Shown here piece by piece: positions 221 to 63,065 of a DNA stretch of 64,000 bases. This DNA comes from Paraspadella gotoi. Its lineage: Eukaryota > Animalia > Chaetognatha. Below the pieces are notes generated by a model. That model was not told the DNA's origin, made no database searches, and saw nothing but the letters and a program-made list of their open reading frames with translations. The position numbers and the translations under genes are program-made. The stretch lies in NCBI GenBank assembly GCA_051294375.1, contig CM119267.1, positions 14,501,694 through 14,565,693 of the forward strand, read 5' to 3'. Every line of letters starts with the position of its first letter. Within the stretch, counting starts at the first letter, position 1.

Positions 221-1645
221 ATGCTACGCGAAAACTTGTCATCTCATTTTTCAACAGATTTTGAAGGGTGGGCTCTTCACGTTAAAGATTCCGATGTTTA
301 TTATTTGGCTCATGTCAGCTTTAATCGGACTGGTAGTTTTTGCATCCTGGTAGATTGTGTCGTAACGCTAATTCCACAAAAATTAAATCCGGAAACCATT
401 TTGGTCGAAGCCATGTATGTTGATGAATTTCATGAACAGCATTTTCTAAAAAGTGAAACAATTAACTTGGCTAAAAATGAGTTTTCTCTATCGCTTTTGA
501 CACTGCTTAAAAATCTAGAAAAAAGGAATTTTCTAGTGGAAAATAAGAGTCACGACTTTGAAAAAAAAGCAATAAGTTGTGAGTCTGACGCAATTTCCAA
601 ACGGGTTCATTCCCATCATGATGTGATTGAAACGAAGTTTTCGATTTTAGAACATAAATCAAAAATATTCAAGGAAAAAAACCTTGTCATCAAGCAAGAG
701 CCACTCAGTCGTAAGGAGCAAGATAGTCCAGCACGGAAACGAATTTCCAGGTTCTCCAAAGAATATTTAGCTGAAGCTTTAAACGATTCCGGTTCAGAAA
801 AGGAAGACAAATCAGTTGTTTATAAAAATAAAAGGTTAAAGAAAATAAGGAAGTTGAAGGAGGACGACAAGCCTTTCACAATCCCCGGAAAGAAGATCTT
901 GTATAACGAACTATCTTGCAATGACACATTTATTGGTCCCTGTCGCCTATGTCGCTTAGAATTAACTGTTAAAGACGCTGTTGATCATCATCGATTGCAT
1001 CACGAGGATCAGGTCAGCGAACATTACAAGTGTCCAATATGCGGAAAGACTGCGATGGCCATGTCTTATCACGTCCGAAAATTTCACGCTTCTAAACTTG
1101 AAAAGTGTGACCTTTGCAACAAATCGTTTGTGACCAAAACGGGAATAGAAAAACATAGAAAACGAGTTCATTTCCCTGAGAACCTTGAATTTAAATGCGA
1201 AATTTGCTTAAAGAAGTATGTTACTAAAAAACATTTGGAAATTCACGTTAAACTAGTTCACAAACGAGTAAGGGATTATATGTGTTACATATGCGGCGCC
1301 GGTTACGTCACTCCATCAAAGTTAAAAAGACACTTCATTAATGTGCACCATCTTTTTGAAAAACAACACGAGTGTAGTTTTTGCGGAAAAAAATTTGCTG
1401 AAGAAGAGGGACTCCGGCGTCATTTGATGACGCATAGCGATATATGTGAATATGAATGTTCCACTTGTGGGAAAACCTTCAAAACTCCAGGCAACTTGAA
1501 GCAGCACAAAGTTTGTCATGATCCTCCAAAACATGTATGTCTGTATTGTGGAAAAAAGTTTCTTTATTCCCAAGGTATGAGATTTCATGTGAAGCATGTT
1601 CACAAAGATGTAATAATTACTGATCCAGGAAAGAAGAAATTGTAA
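221..1645 (+). CDS. C2H2 zinc-finger protein (about 8 tandem fingers in the C-terminal half)
   Basis: 474-aa single ORF with repeated CxxC...HxxxH units (CPICGK, CDLCNKSF, CEICLKKY, CYICGAGY, CSFCGKKF, CSTCGKTF, CLYCGKKF). The true start is uncertain. Confidence 0.9.
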   Translation: MLRENLSSHFSTDFEGWALHVKDSDVYYLAHVSFNRTGSFCILVDCVVTLIPQKLNPETILVEAMYVDEFHEQHFLKSETINLAKNEFSLSLLTLLKNLEKRNFLVENKSHDFEKKAISCESDAISKRVHSHHDVIETKFSILEHKSKIFKEKNLVIKQEPLSRKEQDSPARKRISRFSKEYLAEALNDSGSEKEDKSVVYKNKRLKKIRKLKEDDKPFTIPGKKILYNELSCNDTFIGPCRLCRLELTVKDAVDHHRLHHEDQVSEHYKCPICGKTAMAMSYHVRKFHASKLEKCDLCNKSFVTKTGIEKHRKRVHFPENLEFKCEICLKKYVTKKHLEIHVKLVHKRVRDYMCYICGAGYVTPSKLKRHFINVHHLFEKQHECSFCGKKFAEEEGLRRHLMTHSDICEYECSTCGKTFKTPGNLKQHKVCHDPPKHVCLYCGKKFLYSQGMRFHVKHVHKDVIITDPGKKKL

Positions 1646-1699
1646 CTAGAGATTGCCACTAGGATTGTGCTTGTTGCAACGGTTATTTAGGAGAAAAAC

Positions 1700-1830
1700 T
1701 CGATAATAACCTTTCGATTCGTTGTGTTATGAGATTAGCAAAGAGAATTTGTCATTTGAAGACATTTGAAGACTCGAAATCCAAAGGAGTTGAAACATGT
1801 CCAATTGATTATTAAAAACTTTGTTGTAAA
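1700..1830. mobile_element. Degenerate Penelope-like pLTR fragment with a decayed hammerhead motif
   Basis: 1702-1751 nearly matches 40065-40113. It is followed by TGAAGACTC...GAGTTGAAACATGTCC (1767-1802), which lacks an intact CTGATGA core. Confidence 0.55.
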
Positions 1831-2326: not shown

Positions 2327-4210
2327 ATGACAAGTTTTGGTTCCACTCAACCTTTTTCCTTCGGCACTTCTACCGCGGCGCCGTCTTCCGTTGCAGCCAC
2401 ACCGTTCCCTTCATTTGGAGGTGCCACTTCGGCTCCAACGCTTTTCGGTGGTGGAACAAACGTTGCCACTACAACTTCGGCACCTTCCTTGTTTGGTTCC
2501 ACGACGTCCGCCTCGACGATGTTTGGTGGCTCGACATCGACGGCTGCGACGGCGCCTACTCTCTTCGGATCCACGGCGGCAAGTTCGACCTCGTCGACTC
2601 TCTTTGGTGGCACGGCAAACAAACCCACCGGTGCCGCTGCGCCTTTTTCGTTTAGCGTTCCACAAACTACCGCTGCTTCTTCTATGTTCGGTCAACCATC
2701 CACTGGATTGTTCGGGACTTCTACCACAGGTATAATGTATTTAAATTTTATGCTACATTTTTCGGTTTCGACTCTATACGCATATTTGTTTCTACCTTAC
2801 TTTTCAGCTCAATCAAACACTTTCGGATTCGGCACCAATCAATCTAAGCCAAATTTTTCTTTTGGCGGAACGCCTGCAACTGTACCAATTTTGACGACAT
2901 TTGCCCAGCCACAGCAACAAATTTTGCCACAGCAGCAGCCGCAAATGACACTATCGCCATTGCAATTACTTTTGAAGATCCTCCACTCTCCCGGTCGATT
3001 TCCTGGTGACGAAAGAGACGCTATTATCGCCAAATGGAACCAGCTTCAAGCCCTGTGCGGAACTGGCAAAGCGATGTGGTCCCCGGATGGTCAACAAGAA
3101 TTGTACCAGGACCTGAAGCCAGATAACCCTTTCTCAAAATTTAAAGCAGTTGGTTACGCCTATTCACCTCTTTTGGCGAATCTTGACACGAAGGTCAAAG
3201 AGTCGGACGGACATTTGGTCTTTGTCCTGTCAAAAGAAGCTAAGGAGGTTCAGGCTCTAGGGCAGCAGATCGTCGATGGGCTTCACCTGATGCTTACCAA
3301 CAAGAATCCTCAGTTTGCTTGGGGTTTTTCGGACGTGGAGACTCTCCCACAGGGTACGACCAAGATGATCATATTTTGCCACCGTAAGGATCCTACGACC
3401 GGAGCCACCGCTCCGATTCCAGCAAAAGATCTTCAGAAAGAAATAGAAGCTAATCAGAATCTGACCAACGCCCTGAAGTCACAGCTAGGAGTCGTCAGCA
3501 TCTTTCCTAATGTGCCAACAACGAAAGACGGAATCAAGGAGCAGTTGGAGAATTACTTGAAGACGCCACCGGTCGGAATCGACTCTCTTCTTTGGGACCA
3601 GGCCAAGAAAGACAATCCGGATCCGTCGCAGCTCATCCCCGTGCCGCTGTTGGGCTTCGACACCCTTCACGGACGGTTGGTGCAACAAGAAGCCCAGTGC
3701 GGCGCTCATCAGTCGCGCCTCGACGCCATCGCCAACGACATTAACTCGTTAAAGAGCACCGAATCTTCGACGCAGTCAAAGATGGCGCAGCTGAAGCGAA
3801 ATCAACTAGAGATGGGGCATCGCTTGCTAAAGATTATGGTCAAACAGGAGATAAGTCGCAAGACCGGCATGGCCATCACCCTCGATGAGGAACAGCTTCG
3901 TACTCGACTTGAAGCGCTGCAGACGGAACTCAACTCGCCGACGCAGTTCAAAGGACGCCTCAACGAGCTTCTCAGCAATTTACGTATGCACGGTGGTGTC
4001 GGAGACGTCGGTAGCACCGCGAGTGGTTCTCGCCTTGGTCTCGGGGACCCTGTGGTAATGACGCAGGTCAAACAACTCATTGCGGAGCAACATTCCGGGA
4101 TCAAAGCGCTTCTGGCCATCGTGAAAGAAGATTTGAAGGACTTGAAGACGATGGAGGACGGCTGGTCGGCGGCAGCGGCTTCACCAGTTGTTATTCCGAA
4201 GACGCGATAG
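2327..4210 (+). CDS. NUP54: Nucleoporin Nup54; exons 2327-2729 and 2808-4210
   Basis: N-terminal FG repeats. Motifs GDERDAIIAKWNQLQALCGTGK, PPVGIDSLLWDQAKKDNPDPSQLIPVPLLGF and EEQLRTRLEALQTELNSPTQFKGRLNELLS. A 78-bp GT-AG intron (2730-2807) is read through in the ORF track. Confidence 0.95.
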   Translation: MTSFGSTQPFSFGTSTAAPSSVAATPFPSFGGATSAPTLFGGGTNVATTTSAPSLFGSTTSASTMFGGSTSTAATAPTLFGSTAASSTSSTLFGGTANKPTGAAAPFSFSVPQTTAASSMFGQPSTGLFGTSTTGIMYLNFMLHFSVSTLYAYLFLPYFSAQSNTFGFGTNQSKPNFSFGGTPATVPILTTFAQPQQQILPQQQPQMTLSPLQLLLKILHSPGRFPGDERDAIIAKWNQLQALCGTGKAMWSPDGQQELYQDLKPDNPFSKFKAVGYAYSPLLANLDTKVKESDGHLVFVLSKEAKEVQALGQQIVDGLHLMLTNKNPQFAWGFSDVETLPQGTTKMIIFCHRKDPTTGATAPIPAKDLQKEIEANQNLTNALKSQLGVVSIFPNVPTTKDGIKEQLENYLKTPPVGIDSLLWDQAKKDNPDPSQLIPVPLLGFDTLHGRLVQQEAQCGAHQSRLDAIANDINSLKSTESSTQSKMAQLKRNQLEMGHRLLKIMVKQEISRKTGMAITLDEEQLRTRLEALQTELNSPTQFKGRLNELLSNLRMHGGVGDVGSTASGSRLGLGDPVVMTQVKQLIAEQHSGIKALLAIVKEDLKDLKTMEDGWSAAAASPVVIPKTR

Positions 4211-4469: not shown

Positions 4470-7091
4470 ATGGAAGACCTCGTCTGCGCGCTAGACGACG
4501 GTCACGTTTTTGACGTCGAAGTAGCCCTAGACAACCACGTGGGCGTGCTGCCTAATCCTTTCCCGGGAATGGACAAATCCACTTCGGCCCTCTGCAATTT
4601 TCATCTGACTGGCTACTGCCAAAGAGAGTCGATGTGTCCCAATCGCCATATTAGGTATGTAGGTTTGATGAACTATCTACTATCAATTGTTTTTAGTGTT
4701 TATTCCATATTTGGAACTATAGTATGTACTTTGTAATATTCTCAGTAAATTTGTATCTAGCCGAGATTAAGGATCGCCTCTTCTTCATTGTGACCGTCGT
4801 CGTCGTCGTCACGCTTTTTTATCATCGCAAATTTTAAAAATTTCTCTCTATTTCTCTCATTTAATTATATGTCACGCTCTCTCTCTCTTTTTTTTTCCAT
4901 CGCTGTTTCTTCTGATTCATCTAAAAACAAGTTAAGCTCTGCAGCGGCTGTCCAGCTTTTTTCTTTTATTCTCTCTTTTTCTCTCTTGCTCATACACATA
5001 TGTTTTATTTACGATGAATGACTCATCGCATCAATGAACGATTATCATGGCATCAATGAACGACTATCATCGTATCAATGAATGATTATCATCGCATCAG
5101 TCATTTGGTTATCATCGTATAAATAAATGACTATCATCGCATCAATCATTTGGTTATCATCGCATCAATATTTAGTTATCATCGCTTCAATTTTTGGTTA
5201 TCATCGCTTCAATTTTTGGTTATCATCGCATCAATATTTGGTTATCATCGCATCAATAAATTATTATTATATCAATCAATAAATTATTATTATATCAATC
5301 AATAAATTATTATTATATCAATCAATTAATTACTATTATATCATCTCTTTCTCTCATACACGCATGTTTTATTTCTGATTAATGATTCATCGCGTCAATG
5401 AATGATTATCATCGCATCAATGAATGATTATCATCGCATCAATGAATGATTATCATCGCATCAATGAATGATTATCATCGCATTAATGAATAAATATCAT
5501 TGCATCAATGAATGATTATCATTGCATCAATGAATAATTATCATTGCATAAATGAATGATTATCATCGCATCAATGAATAATTATCATTGCATAAATGAA
5601 TGATTATCATCGCATCAATGAATAATTATCATCGCATCAATGAATGATTATCATCAATTTTATTATATCAATCAATTACTATTACATCAAGCAATCAATT
5701 ATTATTATTACATCAATCAATCAATTATTATTATATCAATCAATCATTATTATTACATCAATCAATCAATTATTATTACTTCAATCAATCAATAATTATT
5801 ATTTTAATTATTATTACTTTAACAATCAATCAATTACTATTACATCAATCAATTACTATTGCCTCTATTATCAATCAATTATTATATCAATAAATCGATT
5901 AATTATTATTACATCAATCAATTATTATTAAATAAATCAATTACTATTACATCAATCAATAAATTAATATTATATCAATCAATCAATTACTATTACATCA
6001 ATCAATCAATCAATTACTATTACATCAATATTTTATTATCGCATTAATCATTTATATTTTTTTTCGAATTTTTTCATTAATTTTCTTTGATAGTAACGTC
6101 TGGCGAGATCACTATACTTTTAAGATTTTTTAATTGTGATTTCATTTTACTCTTTTATCGTCATTCTGCGCTTCCACCTGTTATATTTATCGACTTCAGG
6201 GGTGACAGAACCGTGGTGTGCAAGCACTGGTTGCGAGGCCTCTGCAAAAAGGGCGACGACTGCGAATTTCTGCATGAATACGACATGTCGAAGATGCCGG
6301 AGTGTTATTTTTACCAAAAGTTTGGAACTTGCCTCAACAAGGAGTGTCCTTTTCAACATATAGACCCGTCATCCAAGATTCGAGACTGCCCTTGGTACGA
6401 CCGCGGTTTTTGCCGTCACGGACCCTCTTGCCGTCATCGTCACACGCGTCGTGTTCTATGCATTAATTATTTAGTTGGATTTTGCCCCGACGGTGAGTTT
6501 TTAAATTAGGAAAGAAAACACTTTTTATTAGTCATAATAAGAAAAAAACATTTTTCACCATTTATACTCAAGTATCACATCAATCTATAATTCGAATTTT
6601 GTGTCTTGCTTCTCTACTTGAAACCTAAAATCTCAATCTACCTTTTTTCATCAGGTCCCACCTGCAAATTCGCCCATCCATCTTTCGACCTTCCTCAGCC
6701 CGATCCAATACAGAAGCAGCAAAAGCAGAACATAGTGTGCCACGCATGCTTAGAACCGGGCCACAAAAGCTACCAATGCCCCAAAAACCCTCAGATCGGC
6801 GTGCCTTCCGGATTCCCCTCTTCGACGCCTTCGGTCCCCCGGGAAATGGACCAGAGCCAAGACACTGGATTCCAGGCCGGCGATGCCAATGACTCAGGAA
6901 ACTTTTTCGCCCGACTCAACGCTTCCAAAAGCGGACAAACGGGTTACCGACATATGGATCGTCCCATACGCGGAGCCGAACACATTACATGTTACAAGTG
7001 CGGCGAATTGGGACACTTCGCTAACAGATGCCCACGAGGAGCACACGGATTTCTTCATAGAGCCGATCACAAGCAAGGGGATCACCAATAG
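4470..7091 (+). CDS. CPSF4: Cleavage and polyadenylation specificity factor 4 (CPSF30/Clipper); exons 4470-4654, 6200-6492, 6655-7091
   Basis: PFPGMDKS, then five CCCH fingers (VVCKHWLRGLCKKGDDCEFLHEYDMSKMPECYF, CPWYDRGFCRHGP), then two CCHC knuckles. GT-AG junctions keep the frame. Confidence 0.95.
5020..5655. repeat. Minisatellite, about 20-22-bp unit ATCATCGCATCAATGAATGATT, in two blocks
   Basis: Directly visible tandem copies at 5020-5260 and 5385-5655. Confidence 0.9.
5656..6030. repeat. AT-rich minisatellite ATCAATCAATTATTATTA(T/C)
   Basis: Tandem copies. The same unit occurs at 5260-5340 and 45785-46000. Confidence 0.9.
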
Positions 7092-7326: not shown

Positions 7327-9607
7327 ATGACGAAGCGCAAAAAAGCGGAGAAAAGAAACGAGTTGAAACCCACGACGACCAAGGTGGTTAAGGAAAAAAA
7401 TGATTGTCCAAGGGAGAAAAAGCGCGGGAATTCCTCCTTAACGACCAAAAAGTCGGCGCCTTTGTGTAAACTGCGCACGGTTTGGCTCTTTTTTTGTGCC
7501 GTCAGAATAGTATGGACTTTGTACGGACAAACTGGATACATTCATCCGGACGAGTTTTTTCAGGCCCCGGAAGTGGTGGCTGGGGATGTTTTTTCTTTCC
7601 AGGTGAGTGTCAACTGTGAGTTTGCCTGTTCATTCTGATATCCCATGAATGTTTTTGCCATTAATCAGGTGACCAAGTCCTGGGAATTCACCAGCGAATC
7701 TCCGATTCGTTCCATGATCATGCCATTTCTGACCGTTGGCATACCGTTTTACGTACTCCGTGATCTCAGCGGGTTGTCATTACAGAACGGCGGTAAAAAT
7801 AATTAAATTACCTTATTTGGGAAACCTTTTTATTATTTTTTTTTCCCAGGTCCTAATCTTGTGACGTCAGCGTCGGTTTTATTTGCCTCCCGATTTTCAT
7901 TTTGTTTGATGTCGTTTCTTGTCGATTGGTTTTTGTGGAAGATCTCAATAGTGTCAAACCTTTCTTGCTACTCGGTATTGACGGCTTTCGGTTCCAGTTA
8001 CATCGCTTTAGGTATGTCTTGTCAAATTACGAAATGCAATAAATAAAAATCCCTCGAATAAAATTTACTAAATAGATTTAATTATTCCTTTGAATTCTTT
8101 TCCACTAAAGTATTTTATACGCGGAGTCTTTCAAACAGCTTGGAAGCAATTTTCTTCTCTGCGCTGTTGTATTTAGTCATCTCAACGAAGGTCGTCATTA
8201 AAAACGTCTCAAATTCGTCGCCCGCACAAAACGAAACAAAAAGGTTTGACGAGCCAATCGAAAAAAGCGCCTATCCCCCCATCAACTAAAATTGAAACTT
8301 TTTTTCTAGAACCTCGAAATTCCCTACGATCTCCGCCGAAGGCGCCGTCCCGATCTCGATCGTTACAGCGTTTGGTTTCTTTAACCGGCCAACGTTTCTC
8401 GCCTTCGCCTTCGTCCCGCTTCTTTACTGGCTTCTCAGATCCTGCTTTCCTCTTTGCCGGCAGTCTGCCCTCGTCCTGGTTTGGAGAGCGGCGTCGCTGG
8501 TTCCCGGCACACTCGTCGCTTCCGCCGTCTGCATCGCCTTCGACTCCGTCTACTACGGACGATTATCCTTAGAAGAGCTGGGCGAGGCATTGCAAAGACC
8601 GACATATCTCTCGGTTAGTAAAATTAAAACTTATACTTTAGTTTCTTTAATCTCATGGTTTAATTCCACAGATTGTTTTCGGTCGTCTCGTTGTAACTCC
8701 CATCAACTTCATCTCTTACAACCTCGACCCTACGAATCTTTCCTCCCACGGCCAACATCCCTTTTATACTCACCTATTTAACTCCTTTCTTCTCTACGGA
8801 GTGGTCGGCGTTCTCGTCGTCACATCACTCATTCACCGGCTGTACTTCAGCGTTAAATCTTCGTCGCCTCACTCGCAAACGGACCTTCTGACGGCCTCTT
8901 ATCTTTTCCCGCTCTTTGTTCTATCTCTCTTCGCTCATCAAGAGCCTCGCTTTCTCATTCCGCTCCTAGCTCCTCTTTGCCTTCTTCATTCGGACCTCGT
9001 TTTCGGCTCCCGTGCTTCGCGTTTATTGGCCGTTACCTGGTTTCTCTGGAGCGTCGCAGGGGCGCTGCTTTTCGGCGTGCTTCACCAGGGCGGTGTGGTT
9101 CCTTCTTTGGCCTCCTTATCTCGACTCACTCGCGAAGGACAGTTGCGATGCCCAGCCAGGGTAGTTTATTATAAGACTTATATGCCGCCGCGTCATCTTC
9201 TGGCGTTGCCGAGCGATGTCCCTAAACATGGCGAGGACGAAGATTGCACCCATCTGGAAGTGGTCGATTTAAAAGGCTGCGCTCCGGAGATTTTGATGGA
9301 CGAGATAAGGCGCTCAAGGGACGAAGACGTTGGGGAGTTAGTTCTGATTACCCCGACAGAAATAGCCCGTCGCGTATTGTGCGATAATCGCGTCGGTTTT
9401 CTCGTCTTGGACACGATCTTTCCTCATTTTTCGATGGAAACGCCTCCTGGATTCGATATTTTCTCTACAGAGGGAGAGTGGCGCGGCTGTTTCGCCGATG
9501 ACGATACGAACCTTGCTCAGTCGGTGTTTGATAAGTTTAAATTTTTTTTGTCTTTATCAGTTATAAAGATTGATAAATTTTCGTTAGATATGAATTTAAG
9601 TTCATAA
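7327..9607 (+). CDS. PIGZ: GPI mannosyltransferase 4 (PIG-Z/SMP3, GT22); exons 7327-7602, 7669-7792, 7850-8011, 8111-8243, 8310-8613, 8672-9607
   Basis: Motifs GYIHPDEFFQ, WEF...PIRS, TRSLSNSLE, TPINFISYNL...NLSSHGQHP, HQEPRFLIPL, HQGGVVP and YKTYMPP. Short GT-AG introns join them. Confidence 0.9.
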
Positions 9608-9682: not shown

Positions 9683-10183
9683 ATGGAAAGGACGGCATTG
9701 AAGAGCATTAAAAATGTTACGGACACTGACAAATTTAAGCCATTCTGTGCCGATTGTAACGCGTCGTTTTCTTCCAAATCTTCTTTAAATCGACATAAAA
9801 AAGACATTCATGAAAACGAACCGAGATTTCCGTGCATTCTTTGCGACCATTCATTTAAGAGGAGTGAGCATTTGAAAAGTCATCTCCTCTCACACACCGG
9901 AGATAAACCCTTGATGTGCGAATTTTGTAGCAAGCGATTCGCCGACGCTTCACACCTCAAACGTCATCAACGGTCCCACAAAGAAGAAAAACCATTTTCT
10001 TGTCCTATCTGCGAAAAAGGCTTTGCTCACTCGAAAACTCAATTGAAAAATCATTTGATGACCCACACTGGCGAAAGGCCGTTTGTGTGTCGGAAATGTT
10101 GTAAAGGATTCATCACGAAAATTCAGTTGACAAGACATTTTAAAAAATGTTCGCCCATTTTATCGTCGCTGACACAATCCTAG
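9683..10183 (+). CDS. Small C2H2 zinc-finger protein (5 fingers)
   Basis: HTGDKP, HKEEKP and HTGERP linkers. The ATG at 9683 follows a CCCTTTAG acceptor ending at 9674. Confidence 0.9.
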   Translation: MERTALKSIKNVTDTDKFKPFCADCNASFSSKSSLNRHKKDIHENEPRFPCILCDHSFKRSEHLKSHLLSHTGDKPLMCEFCSKRFADASHLKRHQRSHKEEKPFSCPICEKGFAHSKTQLKNHLMTHTGERPFVCRKCCKGFITKIQLTRHFKKCSPILSSLTQS

Positions 10184-12284: not shown

Positions 12285-13457
12285 ATGCCTCTTTCCTTAA
12301 TTGACTTGCCGCAAAAACTGTTGGCGTCCATCTGTCGTTATTTGGACCCCACCGAATTCGCGCGCCTTTCCTGCTCCTGCCGAACTTTTCGCCATCTCTT
12401 CGATTCCGATATTGTCTGGGAAGATTACATTCGTAGAGAATTTAATATCCCTAAGTTCTCGTATCAGTATCTCTCATCGAAAATTTTTTACAAAAGAATC
12501 TTGCGCAATTTCAAGTTCGCACTTGGCTTATGGTTCATGGATTTTCCCCACACTGGCGGCCTGATGAGAGTCTCCGTACACAATGGGACGCTGCTTGCCG
12601 AAGAGATAGTGGCTCCGGTTGTACAAAGTGACGTTTTCTCTCCCACTACCATGCGAAACTTATTTAGAGTTCGATACGATCGTCGGTCGAAAAGAGCCAA
12701 GATTGACTGCCTTCTCGGGAAAGAGTTGATGCCTTCTGTCGACTGCCTTCAAGGCACTCTGTTCAAAGTGATCGAACGTTCTGACGGTAGACTTTTTATG
12801 CGGTGCACGAGCGGGAAAACTCACACCGAAAAATTAGCTCTGGCAAACCTCGACGTACAGGATCCTCACAGAAAAAAGATCGAGTTTACTCGCGGATACA
12901 AGAGATGGGTTCTGAACAATTTCCAATGCATCTGCAAAAAAATTATCGTTCCGACATTTCCAACCCCGATCCGATTTCAACCCGGTTTTTTCAAGGGTTC
13001 GTTCAACGATCATGGCGTCGAGTTGCTAGTCTTGGCTTACGTTGATGGAACGGGTAAAGCGCTTCACGGGGCCAAGGTGACGGGGGATCCTAACGTACCC
13101 GCCATGCAAATGTCTTTTTTCGTTTATTTCAACCAATCTTACTTTCCTGACATATCTCAGCAACACTCGCTCAAATCTTTGAAGGAGATGCCGCCTACGT
13201 TTAATGACTTTCCACCGTCTTTCGAACCGCAACCTTTTTATATGCCGAGAAGGCTGCACGTCGAAGTCAGAGGATTTCGAGTCCCGGATACATGTATGGG
13301 AAGATTTAATTCTGAACTACTCGTAGCTGGTCCTAATTTTACGAATCCTTCCTATATTCGAGCTCAGATGATTTTTTTCAACTACAGTTTGTTGGGCATG
13401 ATTGTTTACGAAATGAATAGCATGCTAATTTTTCATCGTGCGGCCCATTTTTCATAA
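12285..13457 (+). CDS. FBXO31: F-box protein, FBXO31-like, intronless
   Basis: N-terminal F-box (LIDLPQKLLASICRYLDP...W). PGFFKGSFNDHGVELLVL and KVTGDPNVPA resemble the FBXO31 C-terminal domain. Confidence 0.8.
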   Translation: MPLSLIDLPQKLLASICRYLDPTEFARLSCSCRTFRHLFDSDIVWEDYIRREFNIPKFSYQYLSSKIFYKRILRNFKFALGLWFMDFPHTGGLMRVSVHNGTLLAEEIVAPVVQSDVFSPTTMRNLFRVRYDRRSKRAKIDCLLGKELMPSVDCLQGTLFKVIERSDGRLFMRCTSGKTHTEKLALANLDVQDPHRKKIEFTRGYKRWVLNNFQCICKKIIVPTFPTPIRFQPGFFKGSFNDHGVELLVLAYVDGTGKALHGAKVTGDPNVPAMQMSFFVYFNQSYFPDISQQHSLKSLKEMPPTFNDFPPSFEPQPFYMPRRLHVEVRGFRVPDTCMGRFNSELLVAGPNFTNPSYIRAQMIFFNYSLLGMIVYEMNSMLIFHRAAHFS

Positions 13458-50499: not shown

Positions 50500-50536
<37 letters not shown>

Positions 50537-53500: not shown

Positions 53501-56500
53501 ACCCTATACCAGACGGCAACCTTTCAGGTTTTTATCATTCCGGAGATGGTGTGTTTCCATTTTCTTTTTCCTCCTATAAAAGGAACCGTGTAAGGGTAGT
53601 ACTATATAATAAATATATATGANNNNNNNNNNNNNNNNNNNNNNNNNNNNNNNNNNNNNNNNNNNNNNNNNNNNNNNNNNNNNNNNNNNNNNNNNNNNNN
53701 NNNNNNNNNNNNNNNNNNNNNNNNNNNNNNNNNNNNNNNNNNNNNNNNNNNNNNNNNNNNNNNNNNNNNNNNNNNNNNNNNNNNNNNNNNNNNNNNNNNN
53801 NNNNNNNNNNNNTGAGCAAACGAAAAACATAATAAAATAGAGAGAAAAAAAATGGTTAATTAAATAAAATGTTATGGTGGACTAATCCACCAACCGTTCA
53901 TCAGCGGCCTTTGGTACCGGAGGCAAGTCTTTTGCCTTCCCATCCAAAGGTCTGGGGTTCTAGCCTGGTGGTTGCCTAGCAGTTAAGAGGGACGGGGCGC
54001 TTAACCNNNNNNNNNNNNNNNNNNNNNNNNNNNNNNNNNNNNNNNNNNNNNNNNNNNNNNNNNNNNNNNNNNNNNNNNNNNNNNNNNNNNNNNNNNNNNN
54101 NNNNNNNNNNNNNNNNNNNNNNNNNNNNNNNNNNNNNNNNNNNNNNNNNNNNNNNNNNNNNNNNNNNNNNNNNNNNNNNNNNNNNNNNNNNNNNNNNNNN
54201 NNNNNNNNNNNNNNNNNNNNNNNNNNNNNNNNNNNNNNNNNNNNNNNNNNNNNNNNNNNNNNNNNNNNNNNNNNNNNNNNNNNNNNNNNNNNNNNNNNNN
54301 NNNNNNNNNNNNNNNNNNNNNNNNNNTCTGAAGAACAGTATTTTTCATTGTATAGATCCATGAGATAAAGGTTTTCTTACAATTATTAAAAATTGTAGAT
54401 AGGGTCGTGGTATTCAAACATACTCTTAAGTTCTCACAAACATCGATTATATCAAAAAAAATTTTGGACACCATCATTATATAATATATATAATATGTCA
54501 TTATCTTGTAAGAGTGATGGAGGCCTTAAACCACCAAAGCCTGTCCAAAGTCAGGGGCAAGATAGCTTATTTATTAAATGATGGATAATTTTTATATTGG
54601 TTGTACCAATTTCATAAATTCAGCTCCTTGTATTTTGATGCTAGTGCGGGAGTACAATAAGTATCCCCGATCTAATACTTAAGGGAGTGGTCTTTTCATA
54701 CAATTGAAACATTCTTTGAAATATTTTCCACTTCATTGATAGGGAAGCCAGGTACTCTGGGAGTGAATAAACGGGACTGTGAGAGAGTCTTGATTGAAAG
54801 CTTGCAGGGACCTGCTATGTCATTATCTTGTAAGAGTGATGGAGGCCTTAAACCACCAAAGCCTGTCCAAAGTCAGGGGCAAGATAGCTTATTTATTAAA
54901 TGAATGGATAATTTTATATTGTTGTACCAATTTCATATAATATATATATCATATATACAAAATATATACAAAATAAGCTGACTGGGCTACAATATACAGT
55001 AATATTGTACAATGTAAAGTATATTATACATATAAAAAATAACTACTGATTAGTATTCACTAATATTATAGATTTCAAGATATATCTGCTAAATTTTGAT
55101 TCCAAACTTTCACTTCACCCTGCTGTATATTGTTTCAGACTTTTGTATTTTGAGTTTTAAAGTAGGAGTCTACGTCGTTCTTAGAAATCGAGGAAGACTT
55201 TTTCAATGGAGATTTTCGTTAAATCTGTCTACCAAATAATGTCAACGCCCCTGGGAAAATTCAGGTAAAAAATAGATGTAAAAACACTCGATTCCGATCC
55301 TGTTGCATCTGAAGGGCTCGCATTTTTTTTCTCTTGACAAAATACCATCATTTTGACATTGAACCACTTCGATTCAAATTGACTGGTCCGCTCGGGAAAA
55401 TATTTTTGACGCAATTTTTTATATAAAATAAAGGGATTTCTCCCTTCAATACAATGTCAACGCATTTAAGGTATGTTGTCATTTTACAATAAACTTCGAA
55501 TTCAGGAATATGATAGCAATATGTCTGAAGGGCTCTCAAAATTTTTTACTTTTCATTTGGTTATTTAATATGATACGATCATGTTAATAGTGAATTAGTC
55601 CATTTTGGAAAATTTTTATTTAAAGTATAAGTAAAAGAAGAGCTAACAATCGGAATTCTAAGAGTTTTCAACCGGGACACAGGGATCCAAATGACCTTAA
55701 TTTCCGGATAAACCTCTCTTTTTTGGCAAAAAAACTTTTTCTCGTATGCTGATTATCATATATGCCCTCTGAGGTTGTTAGAAACGTTTCAGATAATTAA
55801 AAGTGATTTGAAAAAATAGAAAAAAAAATTCATTTACCGCCAAATTTGGTTCTTAAAGAAATCATTTATGGTAGTTGAACAACTTTTGATTATAATTTTT
55901 GATATTAAAAGAAATTGACCCAACTTAATATTTTTTCTTTATTATATTATAAGTAATAGGTGTAATATTGCTAAATATAAAATCATTAATTTAATCTTTT
56001 TAAAAGTGCGTTAAGCAAATTAAGTTCGGAAATACGGTCAAAGAAAAGAATCATATGGTATTTCTGAAGAATATCGAATTCTTTTTTATTATTTTTTGAA
56101 CGAAAAGCATTTTTAAATTTCTCAAAGGGCGGACAAATGCGGATGAGATTTAATTAATAACTGATTAGTAATAAGATGTATCATTAGGAACTAAATCTGG
56201 TTGATTGAAATCGGTTGAAATTCGATGAGTTTTTACTATGTTTTTCATATCATACATAGTGACATAATATAAAAATCTTTTTTTATTTGTTAACAAACTA
56301 GACAAAAAGCTATATTCATAACAAAGTCAAATAATTTTTCTCTTCCACCCATCTGGGTGAAACAAACCTCTCAAAGACTCACCCGAAATAGAGATTTGCT
56401 TATAACTTGAGAAAGAATAATTTTTGGAAACTGTTATCTTACATAAGACTTTGTACCATTACTATGGAAAGACTGAATATGCATTTATGCCCGTATGTTC

Positions 56501-57212
56501 AGGTGGCTTTATCCGGTTTTAATTTTTTTTTGGATCACTGTCGGGAGTCAGATTCGGAAAAAATCTTTATATGGCGAAAATCTTCCAAAGAAGGTGGATT
56601 TTCCAAAGATTTTGGTTAAATTTTCTATATTTATAGTCGGATTTTTTTGAAACTTAAAAATAGCAATATTGCCATCATTCTACATTGGCCGGTCAAGAAT
56701 ATATTAAAAAACTCTGCTTTTTTCGTCAGAGCTTAGTCCTATTTAAAGGTGTAGCTAGCATTTGTAGTTATTTTTTTTAGCTTCGTACCTTTTACTAAAT
56801 ATGTAAAAACCATTCAGGTGCATCCACCATTCGGTATCGCAGGTCGTTGGGCCTATTCGATCGCTTTACTGTTTCCACGCGAGTTCTCGGTTGGGACGCG
56901 AAGAATTTCTATATCGAGCACAAGTTTCATCGCGTTAGTGACGGATTTGTTTGCGCCATCGTCCTGATCAAACAGTCACTCGCGCGCGGCGATGTTCCTC
57001 ACCTATTGAAGGCTGCAGTCCTCGCCAAGGGTGGGCTTTTTGACGACCGTCTCGATGTACTCGGCGACAGCCCCGAGTTTCCCGATGAACTGCATCTATG
57101 GAACCAGAGCAACGAGGTTTCCAGTCAAAAGCTAAATCCGAAAAAGATTCTCGCCGAAGAGACGGCAGCTCCGTTTACCGACGTTGTCCCCGAGAGTAGG
57201 CTCAATTTTTGA
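48596..57212 (+). CDS. THEM6: THEM6-like thioesterase; exons 48596-48647 (predicted), 51736-52029, 56818-57212
   Basis: Motifs DLDFMFHMNNARYLRECDFAR, IRYRRSL...TRVLGWD...FYIEHKF...DGFVCA and PEFPDELHLW...NEVSSQKL. Phase-1 junctions are compatible. Exon 1 is less certain. Confidence 0.88.
48830..48960 (+). repeat. Dispersed repeat end with an inverted copy at about 53160-53470
   Basis: GGGTATAGGTTCCCAACTGATGACCTTCCCATTGTATAAAC and TTTCTGTTCAGCCTCTTAGAT recur as reverse complements. Confidence 0.75.
49240..50150. repeat. Array of five related units (GGGTAGGAAAGTGTGTGA...GAGTGGAAATGAGTTTAAATGGAAAAAA)
   Basis: Units lie near 49250, 49385, 49690, 49868 and 50010. 50121-50150 is the reverse complement of 16513-16542. 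Confidence 0.8.
50214..51648 (-). mobile_element. 5'-truncated Penelope-like retroelement: GIY-YIG C-terminal fragment, pLTR with hammerhead, inverted ends
   Basis: ORF 50931-51494(-) has VLSHDQNWFSRGIREAIYIKALEPSLNRGG, typical of the end of the PLE endonuclease. The pLTR lies at about 50330-50890. Inverted repeats are 50214-50243/51619-51648 and 50427-50453/51470-51496. Confidence 0.8.
50432..50466 (-). ncRNA. Minimal type I hammerhead ribozyme, stem II variant
   Basis: Minus strand reads tg-CTGATGA-A-GGCTT-gagttgt-AAGCC-GAAA-CATGTC-ca. Confidence 0.8.
52946..52981 (-). ncRNA. Minimal type I hammerhead ribozyme
   Basis: Minus strand reads ttg-CTGATGA-A-GACTC-gaaaacaa-GAGTC-GAAA-CATGTC-caa. 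Confidence 0.75.
53905..54006 (+). mobile_element. Possible tRNA-derived SINE head (truncated by a gap)
   Basis: A-box-like TGGTACCGGAGG and B-box-like GGTTCTAGCC with tRNA-like spacing, in a GC-rich island between gaps. Confidence 0.35.
54495..54937. repeat. About 120-bp direct repeats flanking an about 200-bp spacer
   Basis: ATGTCATTATCTTGTAAGAG...GTACCAATTTCATA at 54495-54616 and 54818-54937. Confidence 0.85.
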
Positions 57213-57670: not shown

Positions 57671-58714
57671 GGTAATTTCAACAGTCATTGTTCAAGCGGT
57701 ACGCAATCTGAGCGTTTATCTTCTCTCTCTCGTCTCGAAAGAGTTTCCAACGAAGCGAGATTTCTCAGTAACGAAAGCAGAGCTCGTCGCAAATCACGTG
57801 ACAAAGTTGTTCCATCAACTCCTTGTTTTACGGGAAGTGATGGTTATATCGATGACGATTACTTCGACAGTTCATTCTCAATCGCTGCCGACAGATTTCA
57901 GTATTCTTCGTTTCCCGGGGTGAGACATGGCGATGAGGGCCTTCGACCCCAGAACCCTCTCGGTTGCGGCGTCGATTGCGAATCGTCGGGCGAAGCTAAA
58001 AGCGTCCCGATAGTCACAGTGGACGAGATTTTCTCACGCCGTAAAAAACCGCGAGACTCTGACGAAGAAGGATCGATATCGAGCCGAGAGAGAGACGAGC
58101 GCCCTCGTCGTCATCGTCTTATCTCCCGAGAAATTAGCGACAACCGACGTGATGGATCACAAATTATCTCCAAACAGGGAAATCAAACTTCTTTTTTGTT
58201 GTCTTATCCATCGCTCAACGTGGAGAACGAGTCGGGCAGAAACGGTAGCGATGGTCGAGAATCGCAGTTTTTGATGACTCATGGAGCGTTGGACCGCAAG
58301 GAGCGGAGATTGTCGGACAAAGTTTCGGTGGTAGATTGCGCCAACCAGACCTCGTTTTTGACGTATCCTTCTTTGGAATCTGACGAGGAGCTCCTGTTGA
58401 AATCGAGTGACGAGGGTCTCTCCGAAATTCGGCGTCGTCGATCCCTGAGAGGCTTCCGTCGGGAAGCGAAGGTGCCGCACGGAACTCAGGCGATGTTCGA
58501 AAAGGGCAAAAGATCAAATTCCGGCTCCGTGAGAGAGAAATCGACAGAGAATTCACGCCCGGAAAGATTGGTGGACGAGTTGCGAGGCAAGTGCCGAAGG
58601 GCGAGGAAAAGGCTAGAAAGCGGCTCCTGTCACTCTCCCTGCGACGTTTGGACGCCGACCGGGGACGCGGTTCGAAAAGATTTGATGGTTAGACAGGGTA
58701 CCAAAATCCGTTAA
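57671..58714 (+). CDS. Orphan Ser/Arg/Glu-rich reading frame, probably an exon of an unknown gene
   Basis: Stop-free frame of about 347 codons with exon-like GC content and an internal repeat, NQTSFL(L)(S/T)YPSL. There is no early in-frame ATG. Confidence 0.4.
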   Translation, partial: GNFNSHCSSGTQSERLSSLSRLERVSNEARFLSNESRARRKSRDKVVPSTPCFTGSDGYIDDDYFDSSFSIAADRFQYSSFPGVRHGDEGLRPQNPLGCGVDCESSGEAKSVPIVTVDEIFSRRKKPRDSDEEGSISSRERDERPRRHRLISREISDNRRDGSQIISKQGNQTSFLLSYPSLNVENESGRNGSDGRESQFLMTHGALDRKERRLSDKVSVVDCANQTSFLTYPSLESDEELLLKSSDEGLSEIRRRRSLRGFRREAKVPHGTQAMFEKGKRSNSGSVREKSTENSRPERLVDELRGKCRRARKRLESGSCHSPCDVWTPTGDAVRKDLMVRQGTKIR

Positions 58715-58927: not shown

Positions 58928-59534
58928 ATGATCGATTGCCACGCTCACCTCGCCGACGAAGCGTTTGCGGCAGATCTTGACCGCATTGTTTCTGATGCCA
59001 AGGACGCCGGTGTTATCGCTTGCGTGGTCGTCGCAGAAAATCACAACGAATTCCAAAGGGTTCTAGACATTTGCGAAAATCATGTCGGATTTCTGTATCC
59101 ATGCTTCGGCCTACATCCAGCCCAACCCATCAGAGATGAGGTGCTTTAACGATTTTTTCCGATTGTTATATATAATTGTATTATTAATTATTATTATCGT
59201 TGTTTTAGTGAACTAATGACAAGTGAACATTTTTTTAGACGAACCAAGTGATTGGTTCACGAAGCACGGATGCCCTCAACGACGGTCTTGACGAAGTGCT
59301 CATTTCGATTCGACTTCATCGTGATCGACTGGTGGGTGTGGGCGAGGTTGGCCTAGACTTTTCCCCACGTATCTGTTCTCGCGGAGAGACCGACAAAGTT
59401 TCGCAGAGGGAGGCTTTGACGAAACAGGCGCTCGTCGCTCTCGAGTGCGAGCTTCCACTGAACGTTCATTCCCGATCAGCGGGCAAACCAACGCTGAATT
59501 TGCTAAAGGTTTGATGCTGGGTTGGCAAAAACCT

Positions 59535-59568
<34 letters not shown>

Positions 59569-60081
59569 GTACATTGATGGCAAAAAAATAATCTTTTTAA
59601 GATATTAACTTAACTTTTTAATTTTGGCATTGAGATTAATGTTATTATTACTTAGGAAATTGGTGTTAATTCTGCTGTGCTACACGCTTTTGACGGAAAC
59701 GACAAATCTGCCCGGATTGGCATAAAACAAGGATATTATTTTTCTGTTCCTCCTTCCATTGTGCGTAGCGACCAGAAGTCCAAACTCGTTCTAAACACTC
59801 CTCTGACGCAATTGCTGTTAGAATCTGATTCTCCGGCTTTGGGTGAATTTAAATTTTCTTATGCTCACGTTGATTGTTTTTTTGTCTATTTGGAAGAAAT
59901 CGTATTGACTCGGAAATTTTTAGGTCCGGTTAAAGACGGAAGGAACGAGCCAAAGAATGTGAAACTATCTTGTGAATATATTGCAAAATTAAAAGGCTTG
60001 ACTGTAGATCAAGTGGCACAAGCAACTACTGAAAACGCCCTTCGCCTTTTTCCTAAACTCAAATCAATTGTTAAAAATTAA
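58928..60081 (+). CDS. TATDN3: TatD-family DNase 3; exons 58928-59140, 59239-59508, 59656-59842, 59924-60081
   Basis: Motifs IDCHAHL, PCFGLHPAQ, GVGEVGLDFSP, LPLNVHSRSAG, LHAFDG, SVPPSIVRS, LESDSPALG|P and RNEPKN. Confidence 0.93.
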
Positions 60082-60141: not shown

Positions 60142-61617
60142 ATGAGTTTACGATTAAATCGAATGATCCTACCCATGGTGTTGCCGGAGATCTCGTGTTT
60201 TACGAAATCGCATTCTTTTATGACTGTCGCCGAATCCGTGAATGAAATTTCGAATTCTACAATTGAGCTAAATACACCCATTGCCAAAGCTATCGACGCC
60301 GCATTCGAAATTAAAAACCCAACTCTGGTTCAGCAAATTTTCTCTGTTTACCCGTCTTTAGGAAATTATGCTGAAAAAGATTTCAACAAAAAATTAGTTG
60401 CATTGGAACACCGCGGTTTCACTAGGGTCGAGTTGCTAGAGAATCTGGAATTATTTTTTTTTCCCGATAATAAGTTGGATCGAAGATATAAAGACCTGAT
60501 CGAGAGAGGAGTGTCCGAGACGGAGATAAACGCCCCCATGATGGTCAATCCTGATAAGCAAAGTTTGTATCCTGAATACTGCCGACCTTGTCGGAGCAAC
60601 TGCCAATATCTTTCCGACACTTTCCGAGTGACTCGTGCCGAGATATTCGACGCTTCTGCTCACTGCTTTGGTATATTAAAACGTTCTGCCGAAATCGGAC
60701 GTCTTTTGGAAATGCTCTGGGAGGCAGGTATGACCTCCGAAGCACTCCTGAAACGATTCAAGAAGATCTTTATTCGAGCGAAAAAGATTGAAAACCGGTT
60801 GATAATTTTGAATTCGATCGCAGAGCCGCAACTAGTGCAAAAATATCTTAAATCGACTGCCATCTATCAATCAGAGACGTATTTTACCGCGAGCGTTTGG
60901 CGTCTGCAAGGGAAGATCAATCGCCGCAGTATTCAAAATCCTCTTAGTGAAAAGGTGAAATTTCTCTCGGAGCTTTTAGAGGTTCCTGACGCCTCAGTTT
61001 ACGACATGCTGGAAGGGAGCAAATCTTCACACGTTATGATTCAACTAAATGATGATAAGCTCAAGGACACGGTCTCGACATTGAAAAGTTTGGGATTATC
61101 CGGTAGAGATATTTTACGCAACGCACCCTTTTTGAGATATTCGCGGAACAATTTAACTGAAGCCGTCTCAATCTTGAAATTAACTGCCGAAGATGTTTCT
61201 ATCAACATTCTAGATTTAAAAAACATTTTATTCACAGGAGAAAGACCTCAAAGAAATAAAGTTCCAAATTTTCTATTTTGCGAATTGGCCGGGTGTTTAG
61301 ATTGCTGCGGAAAGGATTTACGTTTCGTTACCCGGGGATATACTCAGAAAGTTTTTAGTAGATATGTTAACGAACATGGTTATTCGTCTGTAGAACATAT
61401 TGTTTGTGTGACCAAAAAATTGTTGCATAGAGGCTTTTCACCGGCGTCCGTTAAATATGCCTTATTCATTGCTGTTCATAGCACAGATAACATTGAAAAA
61501 GCGCTTGTCACCGTGTCTTTTAAGTTTTTTTCGAACAAAAAAATATATGAAATGACGTTAAAGGAGCAAATTGTTTTGCTTAATTTAGTTCAGTATCATA
61601 TTGAACGCCATTTATAA
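60142..61617 (+). CDS. mTERF-like helical-repeat protein, probably mitochondrial
   Basis: Intronless ORF with mTERF-like repeats such as LKDTVSTLKSLGLSGRDILRNAPFLRYS and KLVALEHRGFTRVELLENLELF. Family call is by eye. Confidence 0.6.
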   Translation: MSLRLNRMILPMVLPEISCFTKSHSFMTVAESVNEISNSTIELNTPIAKAIDAAFEIKNPTLVQQIFSVYPSLGNYAEKDFNKKLVALEHRGFTRVELLENLELFFFPDNKLDRRYKDLIERGVSETEINAPMMVNPDKQSLYPEYCRPCRSNCQYLSDTFRVTRAEIFDASAHCFGILKRSAEIGRLLEMLWEAGMTSEALLKRFKKIFIRAKKIENRLIILNSIAEPQLVQKYLKSTAIYQSETYFTASVWRLQGKINRRSIQNPLSEKVKFLSELLEVPDASVYDMLEGSKSSHVMIQLNDDKLKDTVSTLKSLGLSGRDILRNAPFLRYSRNNLTEAVSILKLTAEDVSINILDLKNILFTGERPQRNKVPNFLFCELAGCLDCCGKDLRFVTRGYTQKVFSRYVNEHGYSSVEHIVCVTKKLLHRGFSPASVKYALFIAVHSTDNIEKALVTVSFKFFSNKKIYEMTLKEQIVLLNLVQYHIERHL

Positions 61618-61772
61618 TCGTTTCATCCTCATTTCACACAATAAATGACTTTATTTTCATGGTTTTTTACAGTCTATTTCATAGAAGTTACTTTATAACA
61701 TTCATATTTTTCTCTTTAATTTTAGATAAGTTATAAATTGGTGAATAGTGCTAAAACTCTTGGAATTAGACA

Positions 61773-63065
61773 ATGTTTCTTATTGCTCGAAGATTTTATT
61801 CCGTTGGGAAACATATTTTCGATCAGGAAGTTATTAATTTCGTCGCAAACGAACTAAAGATTTCAAATAAATTAGCTCAGTCATTCTGTAGATCAAAGAA
61901 TCTGTACAGTTTTGCTAAAGAAAAACCTCAAATCTTTCAAAATAAGTTGAAAATGTTACATTATCAAGGAATATCATTACCAGAAATAGTTGAAAATGGA
62001 AAACTACTTCTTCTTTCTCAAAAGGAAATCGAAAACAATAAAAAGTTGTTAAACATGAACCCAGTTTCAAAAGACTTGATTTGTGGGGAAATTATTTTAA
62101 ATCCTAAGCAAGTTTTAGAACTGTCGAAAAAGATCTCTTTTCGTCAACAGTTTAAAGCTTACGCTCCTTGGTATGCTAATGAGTTACAAGTTGACATTCA
62201 AGTTATTTATGATAATACATCAGACATCCTTGTTTTAACTCGTCACCCAAACTTAAAACTTTTCGTTATTCGATTAATGATTGAAAACGGTGTAGCTGCA
62301 GAAAATGTTATTAAACGTCTAGCTTTGCTCAATTCTTTATCATTGAAAAATTTGCAAGATCGAGTTTCGAAGATTCGCATATTGGAAAAAAATAATATGC
62401 TACGAAAAAATCACAATATATTTAAAAAATCGATTTGGTTAAAAGATGATCATAGTTTTAACTATTACATCCTCAAACAAACGCAGTATTTCGAAAGGAA
62501 TGGTTTTCCACCCGACATCGTCGACAAAGCGAAATTTGTCGCTCACGAGTTGGGATTAAGCGAAAATTTGGTTCTGAATAGCGTACAGGAGAAGCGATCG
62601 ACGGGAGTCATGATTTTTTTGCCGCGTCATAAAATAACTGGCGTTGTGCAATTGTTTCGCAACGCAGGGTTAAGTGGAGAAGAAATATTAGAACTTTCAA
62701 GATGCTTTTTCTACAAGGAATCATCTCTTACGAGTGCTTTGTCGTCCGTGCAAAAAGCGTATGGAGTTACAACTTTAAATCAAAGCCATCTCTCTGACAT
62801 CTGGTGTTTTCTGGTTAAAGGATCTTTTCGGACTAAAACTGGAAGACATAAGAAACCTACTAAAAAATTCGTCCTTGAATATTTAATTGGAATAGGTTTC
62901 GACTATCGACTTTTGTACAATAGTTCATTACCAAACTTTCCACTCGAAAAAGTAAAAATCGCCGCGACAAATTTGAAACTCGAAACTACAAACCTTCGAG
63001 AGATGAGTTTTTTATGCCAAAAAAGACTATTGAATTTATTACATTATTACACTGAAAAACTTTGA
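61773..63065 (+). CDS. mTERF-like protein, divergent tandem paralog
   Basis: Presequence-like MFLIARRFYS. DKAKFVAHELGLSENLV...VVQLFRNAGLSGEEIL aligns with EKVKFLSELLEVPDASV...TVSTLKSLGLSGRDIL in the upstream gene. Confidence 0.6.
   Translation: MFLIARRFYSVGKHIFDQEVINFVANELKISNKLAQSFCRSKNLYSFAKEKPQIFQNKLKMLHYQGISLPEIVENGKLLLLSQKEIENNKKLLNMNPVSKDLICGEIILNPKQVLELSKKISFRQQFKAYAPWYANELQVDIQVIYDNTSDILVLTRHPNLKLFVIRLMIENGVAAENVIKRLALLNSLSLKNLQDRVSKIRILEKNNMLRKNHNIFKKSIWLKDDHSFNYYILKQTQYFERNGFPPDIVDKAKFVAHELGLSENLVLNSVQEKRSTGVMIFLPRHKITGVVQLFRNAGLSGEEILELSRCFFYKESSLTSALSSVQKAYGVTTLNQSHLSDIWCFLVKGSFRTKTGRHKKPTKKFVLEYLIGIGFDYRLLYNSSLPNFPLEKVKIAATNLKLETTNLREMSFLCQKRLLNLLHYYTEKL

What the first reader, a model, noticed from the sequence alone, without database searches (positions are those of the whole stretch)
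221..63065. Co-directional array of 17-18 unrelated housekeeping genes: candidate animal operon(s) resolved by SL trans-splicing
Seen: every recognisable host gene is on +; for 17 independently oriented genes the chance is about 2^-16. Stop-to-start gaps are as short as 60 bp (TATDN3-mTERF), 68 bp (TRMT5-FBXO31), 75 bp (PIGZ-ZF) and 128 bp (DnaJ-DENR). A pyrimidine-tract AG with no obvious upstream donor precedes most ATGs (AG ending at 2312, 4365, 7191, 9674, 10741, 12276, 13772, 37285, 38745, 43797, 47363, 48581, 60140, 61725). Established: this layout marks SL-trans-spliced operons in nematodes, tunicates, flatworms and chaetognaths, usually only a few genes long. Inference: these are polycistronic units, unusually long if they run across the repeat blocks, and possibly in a lineage where operons are undescribed.
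Basis: partly seen in the sequence, partly recalled or inferred. Interest (0 to 1): 0.85.

Follow-up and report, generated by a model that had tools for sequence, protein, structure and literature searches.

The report
Arrow-worm housekeeping gene operons
Seventeen housekeeping genes face the same way in three or four tight clusters of what is likely an arrow-worm genome, and spliced RNA reads through two gene gaps and starts at splice acceptors with extra letters in front, so these are likely ordinary spliced-leader operons of a kind already known in that group rather than one giant transcript.

Summary
Observation largely confirmed. 17 intact genes lie on +, the four short gaps are exact, and all 14 AGs exist. 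A spliced RNA assembly laid on 6050-15100 crosses 2 of 5 gene gaps. CPSF4 shows the same 5-letter surplus by inference. The letters were not displayed, but the last cannot be G, which fits chaetognath leaders (all 26 published forms end TTAAA) and not the nematode, tunicate, Hydra, flatworm or copepod leaders checked. NUP54 groups only with unnamed environmental sequences, so chaetognath is likely, not shown. About 17.5 kb of the middle is likely long-read gap-fill duplication. The genes form 3-4 clusters; the largest holds 7-8 genes, within the published chaetognath maximum of nine (18% of genes are operonic, PMC12460157). Same-strand chance for 3-4 clusters is 0.125-0.25, not 2^-16. The scan noted another long operon elsewhere in this genome (e1-10588163, unchecked). 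Verdict: new member of a known kind; interest 0.25.

The parts
221..1645 (+). C2H2 zinc-finger gene (ZF1); 667 bp from its stop to the NUP54 acceptor, so possibly outside cluster I
2327..4210 (+). NUP54; candidate acceptor AG 2312
4470..7091 (+). CPSF4-like (CCCH + CCHC zinc fingers), 3 exons; acceptor AG 4365, RNA contig has 5 surplus letters by inference; RNA ends 7212
7327..9607 (+). Glyco_transf_22 gene (PIGZ-like), 5 GT-AG introns spliced in RNA; RNA starts at 7326 after AG 7325 with 5 unaligned letters
9683..10183 (+). C2H2 zinc-finger gene (ZF2); AG 9674; same RNA contig as PIGZ, ending 10629
10750..12216 (+). TRM5 methyltransferase (TRMT5); RNA starts at 10737 after AG 10736 with 5 unaligned letters
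12285..13457 (+). F-box + Cyclin_D1_bind gene (FBXO31-like); AG 12276; 5' part on the same RNA contig as TRMT5; RNA ends 13722
13775..14278 (+). Dual-specificity phosphatase; AG 13772; RNA contig 13779-14459 with no leader letters
15267..32824 (.). Likely assembly artefact: indel-rich direct copy and then inverted copy of 32839-43038, ending in 25 N; holds broken Tudor/WD40 copies on both strands
37307..38563 (+). Tudor-domain gene; AG 37285 (start of cluster II)
38768..43563 (+). WD40 gene resembling FBXW/beta-TrCP; AG 38745; exon 38768-39925 plus a likely last exon 43339-43563, which brings its stop to 234 bp from the TMEM231 acceptor
   Evidence: exon join inferred from phase-0 GT/AG sites and length, no direct homology
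43803..44739 (+). TMEM231; AG 43797
46616..47281 (+). DnaJ-domain gene; 1,876 bp after TMEM231, no strong acceptor next to the ATG; likely first gene of cluster III
47410..47997 (+). DENR; AG 47363; 128 bp after DnaJ
48596..57212 (+). Thioesterase-like gene (THEM6-like), 3 exons with long repeat-filled introns; AG 48581, 584 bp after DENR stop
57671..58714 (+). 347-codon stop-free frame, no early ATG, no homolog; gene status unresolved
58928..60081 (+). TatD DNase (TATDN3-like), 3 exons
60142..61617 (+). mTERF-like gene 1; AG 60140; 60 bp after TatD stop
61773..63065 (+). mTERF-like gene 2 (paralog of gene 1); AG 61725

Best explanation
The 17 genes sit on one strand in three or four tight clusters that are likely separate operons of a likely chaetognath genome, each predicted to be transcribed from its own upstream promoter and cut into mRNAs by spliced-leader trans-splicing at the AG before each gene. 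Shown: gene layout, gaps and acceptors; spliced RNA crossing the PIGZ-ZF2 and TRMT5-FBXO31 spacers; RNA contigs starting right after AG 7325 and AG 10736 with 5 unaligned letters. Inferred: the 5 letters are the shared end of two leader forms (published chaetognath SL1 and SL2-4 share exactly TTAAA, so an assembly graph would branch 5 letters upstream of the exon); cluster I is NUP54 to DUSP (7 genes, 8 with ZF1), cluster II Tudor-WD40-TMEM231, cluster III DnaJ-DENR with or without THEM6-TatD-mTERF-mTERF; in the 60-82 nt spacers without AATAAA/ATTAAA, part of the RNA stays dicistronic until a leader is added at the internal AG.
For: Transcript-to-acceptor distances in cluster I are 155 (NUP54 stop to AG), 113, at most 67, 107, at most 60 and 50 nt, all under the 250-bp operon criterion of PMC12460157. 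RNA run X1 holds 0.85 of sampled words and shows six GT-AG introns with zero cover plus one alternative GT-AG skip, yet covers two spacers without a break. 2 of 3 directly seen contig starts follow an AG (AG frequency 0.044; about 0.6% by chance) and CPSF4 has 294 minus 289 = 5 surplus letters. The aligner extended over matching AG at the CPSF4 joint, so a leader ending in G would have shifted these starts; C. elegans, Ciona, Hydra, Schistosoma and copepod leaders end in G, all 26 chaetognath forms end TTAAA. NUP54 and DENR have 69-79% unnamed environmental relatives; the best named hits are 46% (NUP54) and 66% (DENR); the NUP54 clade is 100/100 on a long stem with no named member. Chaetognath operons are established.
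Against: The 5 letters were not printed, so their identity and sameness are unseen. The DUSP contig starts 6 nt after its AG with no extra letters; no leader branch is visible at AG 9674 or 12276; 3 of 5 gaps are not bridged; a contig across two genes does not prove a single transcript. One run, one study, possibly the same biological source as the assembly. No named chaetognath sequence was among the hits or cluster members. The SL1 form that makes the suffix 5 letters long is under 1% of leaders in Spadella. Clusters II and III have no RNA test. No promoter data.
Confidence: 0.78

Rival explanations
1. All 17 genes form one polycistronic unit of about 45 kb (after collapsing the duplicated block), a trypanosome-like directional cluster about twice the longest annotated chaetognath operon.
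For: No intact minus-strand gene found. Collapsing the artefact shrinks the span to about 45 kb, and the extra WD40 exon closes the 3.8-kb gap to 234 bp, leaving only two gaps over 700 bp.
Against: Gaps of about 5.3 kb (DUSP-Tudor) and 1.9 kb (TMEM231-DnaJ) with several AATAAA sites remain; the DUSP contig ends at 14459; three to five units share a strand by chance with probability 0.06-0.25; published maximum is nine genes.
Confidence: 0.08
2. The genes are mostly monocistronic, each with its own short promoter; leaders are added to outrons, and the two bridged pairs are long 3' UTRs overlapping the next gene.
For: 3 of 5 gaps unbridged and no leader branch at two internal AGs; in P. gotoi nearly half of genes are trans-spliced but only 18% are operonic; the 553-681 bp gaps before NUP54, TRMT5 and THEM6 could hold promoters.
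Against: Spacers of 59-82 nt from stop to AG leave almost no room for a 3' end plus promoter; spliced RNA crosses two of them.
Confidence: 0.08
3. These are SL-resolved operons in another animal lineage without annotated genomes (for example a gastrotrich or other meiofaunal group) where operons are undescribed.
For: No named sequence falls in the window's clade; the leader letters are unseen.
Against: A non-G leader end with a 5-letter shared suffix matches the published chaetognath set and none of the leaders checked from five other groups. Leaders of other phyla were not surveyed.
Confidence: 0.06

Closest known systems
Paraspadella gotoi operons (PMC12460157; passages, sections 5, 10 via passages and 12 part 1 read)
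   Same: Co-directional housekeeping genes under 250 bp apart, leader trans-splicing, several leader forms per gene; cluster I (7-8 genes) is near the reported maximum of nine.
   Different: Here three or four such clusters follow each other on one strand over about 45 kb; the leader is inferred, not read. The paper's gene table (xlsx) could not be read, so whether this locus is listed there is unknown.
Spadella cephaloptera RPS14-PCNA operon (PMC2481426; passages and section 12 read)
   Same: Very short spacer before an unpaired acceptor; leader forms ending TTAAA; the paper notes further same-strand clustered genes on the BAC.
   Different: Two genes with a 3-nt gap there; up to 7-8 genes with 50-155 nt gaps here.
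C. elegans and tunicate (Ciona, Oikopleura) operons (PMC7986045, PMC2776167; passages read)
   Same: Unrelated housekeeping genes, about 100 bp or shorter spacers, resolution by a spliced leader; Ciona operons reach seven genes.
   Different: Their leaders end in G, which the contig starts here exclude; no SL2-like specialisation is reported in chaetognaths.
Trypanosomatid polycistronic gene clusters (one sentence in PMC7986045; otherwise recalled)
   Same: Long run of same-strand unrelated genes with leader addition.
   Different: Here kilobase gaps with polyadenylation signals split the run; continuous transcription is not shown.

Membership tests
SL-resolved animal operon (chaetognath criterion, PMC12460157) | Two or more same-strand genes under 250 bp apart | tested here: met
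   6 of 6 gaps from NUP54 to DUSP are 50-155 nt from RNA end or stop to next acceptor; also Tudor-WD40 182, WD40-TMEM231 234 (inferred exon), DnaJ-DENR 82, TatD-mTERF 59, mTERF-mTERF 108.
SL-resolved animal operon | mRNA of a downstream gene starts at an unpaired acceptor AG with letters not encoded just upstream | tested here: met
   PIGZ and TRMT5 contigs start after AG 7325 and 10736 with 5 unaligned letters; CPSF4 by inference; DUSP does not show it.
SL-resolved animal operon | The added letters are one common spliced leader | tested here: inconclusive
   Length 5 and non-G end fit the shared chaetognath suffix, but the letters were not displayed.
SL-resolved animal operon | Polycistronic RNA across gene junctions | tested here: inconclusive
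   Contigs cross 2 of 5 gaps while introns have zero cover; contigs do not prove single molecules.
SL-resolved animal operon | Single upstream promoter per cluster | not testable with these tools
   Needs CAGE, ATAC or H3K4me3 data.
SL-resolved animal operon | SL RNA gene elsewhere in the genome | not testable with these tools
   No whole genome was available; the window holds no Rfam match and only one short leader-end-plus-GT match, on the minus strand without the leader's start motif.
Phylum Chaetognatha (host) | Proteins group with named chaetognath orthologs | tested here: inconclusive
   Window groups at 100/100 with unnamed environmental proteins only; no named chaetognath in hits.
Trypanosome-like single long polycistron | Continuous transcription across the whole same-strand run | not tested
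   RNA laid only on 6050-15100; DUSP contig ends at 14459; gaps of about 5.3 and 1.9 kb remain.

The most novel reading that the evidence does not exclude
The whole 17-gene run, about 45 kb once the duplicated block is collapsed, is a single transcription unit resolved by spliced leaders: an animal polycistron about twice the longest annotated chaetognath operon, missed by the 250-bp rule because long introns and repeat insertions break it up.
Probability: 0.08. Interest if true: 0.65.

Novelty: new member of a known kind. Interest (0 to 1): 0.25.

Why it matters
As read here it is a good but ordinary example: a 7-8 gene operon near the top of the known chaetognath range, handy for testing how very short spacers without a canonical polyadenylation signal are processed. 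It would matter more if the clusters proved to be one unit, since that would show trypanosome-like directional transcription in an animal and that distance cut-offs undercount operon length. It also warns that the apparent 63-kb span and the extra Tudor/WD40 copies are likely assembly products.

Tried and rejected
No holder listed as RNA on record; X1 was treated as RNA only because its contigs skip GT-AG introns. X2 and X3 gave 1 and 0 laid records. A metagenome scan with the DENR alignment returned 29 loci, at most 61% identical, none from the close clade, and 0 of 29 begin with a chaetognath-like leader end, so gene order in relatives is untested. A DnaJ homolog search meant to test for shared DnaJ-DENR contigs found nothing at E 1e-15. 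Cluster look-ups gave no names for the close relatives; the Atlas gave only generic DENR clusters. Rfam found nothing in the window or in 1600-15300 at E 0.5. A minus-strand host gene threaded through the clusters was looked for and not found; short or AT-rich exons could be missed. Real duplication of Tudor/WD40 was rejected as less likely: 3 and 2 substitutions against 21 and 25 indels in the direct copy, 10 and 11 against 122 and 78 in the inverted copy, while two natural repeat comparisons gave 34 and 31 substitutions against 18 and 24 indels; a third control inside 35-37 kb was also indel-rich (6 against 32), so that flank is probably gap-fill too. DNA or nascent-RNA carry-over as the cause of bridging was rejected: 7 of 9 bins checked match zero cover over introns and gaps exactly, and 2 show a small unexplained excess. 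The acceptor rule passes only 1 of 8 cis-intron acceptors, so it is not a general acceptor test. The last WD40 exon alone finds no WD40 structure.

Full report
Observation. All 14 listed AGs are present and the four short stop-to-start gaps are exactly 60, 68, 75 and 128 bp. Pfam, run on 29 translated pieces, supports C2H2 (twice), Nup54, CCCH/CCHC, Glyco_transf_22, TRM5, F-box plus Cyclin_D1_bind, DSPc, Tudor, WD40, TM231, DnaJ, SUI1/DENR_N, 4HBT_2, TatD and, just under cut-off, mTERF, all on +. The last gene is a 21%-identical paralog of the mTERF gene. Of 102 minus-strand stop-free stretches of 65 codons or more, none reaches a Pfam cut-off. The 18th candidate, 57671-58714, lacks an early ATG and has one marginal hit among 1.8 billion proteins (E 8e-4). 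So 17 intact genes on one strand is right. Ten of the 14 AGs pass a pyrimidine/YAG rule met by 30 of 954 non-coding AGs, eight of them within 50 nt of the ATG where chance is 5%; the rule was set after seeing the data.

The middle of the window. Self-comparison shows 15267-26640 is a direct copy of about 32839-43006 and 26206-32799 an inverted copy of 43038-36729, ending in 25 N. In coding sequence the copies differ almost only by single-base indels (Tudor 3 substitutions to 21 indels in the direct copy, 10 to 122 in the inverted one), unlike two natural repeat comparisons (34 to 18 and 31 to 24). This is the error pattern of unpolished long reads (established knowledge), and long-read gap filling is known to overfill gaps and duplicate genes (PMC3504050 and PMC9635638, passages). 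The block is therefore likely an artefact. It puts broken Tudor/WD40 copies on both strands, and its removal shrinks DUSP-Tudor from 23 kb to about 5.3 kb and the array to about 45 kb. The WD40 gene likely has a last exon at 43339-43563: donor and acceptor are both phase 0, and its 74 codons match the roughly 70 residues by which beta-TrCP-type chains extend beyond the aligned part, although the exon alone finds no homolog. Its stop is then 234 bp from the TMEM231 acceptor.

RNA. One run, X1, holds 0.85 of the sampled words. Laid on 6050-15100 it shows seven GT-AG joints. Depth in 7 of 9 bins checked equals exon cover with zero cover of introns and gaps; two bins have a small excess. One contig runs from 7326 through spliced PIGZ, the 75-bp spacer and ZF2 to 10629; another from 10737 through TRMT5, the 68-bp spacer and into FBXO31. 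The other three gaps are not bridged, with 113, 107 and 50 nt between an RNA end and the next acceptor. Both bridging contigs begin immediately after an AG (7325, 10736) with five unaligned letters in front. The CPSF4 contig has 294 letters before exon 2, five more than the 289 from AG 4365 to the donor. DUSP starts 6 nt past its AG with no extra letters, and no leader branch shows at 9674 or 12276. The letters were not printed.

What the five letters likely are. The aligner extended through matching AG at the CPSF4 joint, so a leader ending in G would have pulled the starts back into the acceptor; it did not. The C. elegans, Ciona, Hydra and Schistosoma leaders (PMC7986045, passages) and the copepod leaders (PMC4664967, passages) end in G. 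All 26 chaetognath forms in PMC2481426 Table 3 end TTAAA, and SL1 differs from the other 25 at the sixth letter from the end (section 12). Two such forms on one gene would make an assembly graph branch exactly five letters before the exon. This is inference; SL1 is under 1% of leaders in Spadella, and trimmed adapter or another phylum's leader is not excluded.

Taxon. DENR's 11 best hits are unnamed (69-77% identity, full length) and the best named hit is 66%. NUP54 has three unnamed hits at 76-79%, then annelids and others at 46% or less. In a 33-row tree the window and seven environmental rows form a 100/100 clade on a long stem with no named member; the rows were 32 chosen, and no nematode, rotifer or flatworm was among the 120 hits listed. 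None of the close clusters carries a name. This shows a lineage without annotated genomes in the collection; together with the leader signature, chaetognath is likely. The species was not determined. Earlier scan notes on this genome also say arrow worm; they are unchecked and not counted as support.

Mechanism. Three or four operons: I, NUP54 to DUSP (7 genes; ZF1 is 667 bp away and may be separate); II, Tudor-WD40-TMEM231; III, DnaJ-DENR, followed after 584 bp by THEM6, the unresolved ORF, TatD and two mTERFs. Each is predicted to have one promoter and to be resolved by leader addition at the pre-ATG acceptors. The four shortest spacers hold no AATAAA or ATTAAA, and the two tested are crossed by spliced RNA, which suggests that some upstream mRNAs stay dicistronic; contigs cannot prove that. 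With 3-5 independent units the chance of one shared strand is 0.06-0.25, so the 2^-16 figure shows that the genes are not independent, not that all 17 are one unit.

Comparison with what is known. In P. gotoi nearly half of genes are trans-spliced, 18% are in operons defined by gaps under 250 bp, and the longest has nine genes (PMC12460157, passages; sections 5 and 12 part 1; its gene table was too large to read). A Spadella operon and further clustered same-strand genes were reported in 2008 (PMC2481426). Ciona operons reach seven genes. The Flaccisagitta genome preprint (part 1 of 2) says nothing on operons in the part read. A search for 'longest operon' with trans-splicing returned only PMC12460157. 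Cluster I thus lies inside the known range.

Verdict. Real co-directional clustering, likely SL-resolved operons in a phylum where they are described; new member of a known kind, interest 0.25. The most novel reading left open, one 45-kb polycistron, has about 8% probability. RNA was examined only for 6050-15100, so clusters II and III rest on sequence layout alone.

Noticed in passing
window 13077-13160: An in-frame 84-nt GT-AG segment inside the FBXO31-like reading frame is skipped in one RNA contig and retained in others: an exitron-like event removing 28 residues within the Cyclin_D1_bind domain.
   Followed up: partly
   Followed up: partly
window 57671-58714: 347-codon GC-rich stop-free frame with no ATG until about residue 203 and no homolog; could be a spliced exon, a fast-evolving disordered protein or a frameshifted gene.
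   Followed up: partly
window 50934-51503 (minus): 190-codon frame in the THEM6-like intron that by recall resembles the end of a Penelope-type retroelement; no Pfam hit.
   Followed up: no
window 35145-36997 and 63370-63974: About 600-bp repeat present as an inverted pair upstream of Tudor and again after the last gene, about 90% identical; flanks clusters II and III.
   Followed up: no
window 4979-6056 and 45758-46080: The same 19-23 nt AT-rich satellite lies in the first CPSF4 intron and between TMEM231 and DnaJ.
   Followed up: no
window 10184-10629: The ZF2 3' region is covered by RNA for 446 nt and holds a GC-rich inverted-repeat-like patch near 10460-10490; no Rfam match.
   Followed up: partly
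window pre-ATG acceptors versus intron acceptors: 10 of 14 pre-ATG AGs but only 1 of 8 cis-intron acceptors pass a rule that needs T at -5; trans-splice acceptors may have a tighter TTYAG-like consensus than introns here.
   Followed up: partly
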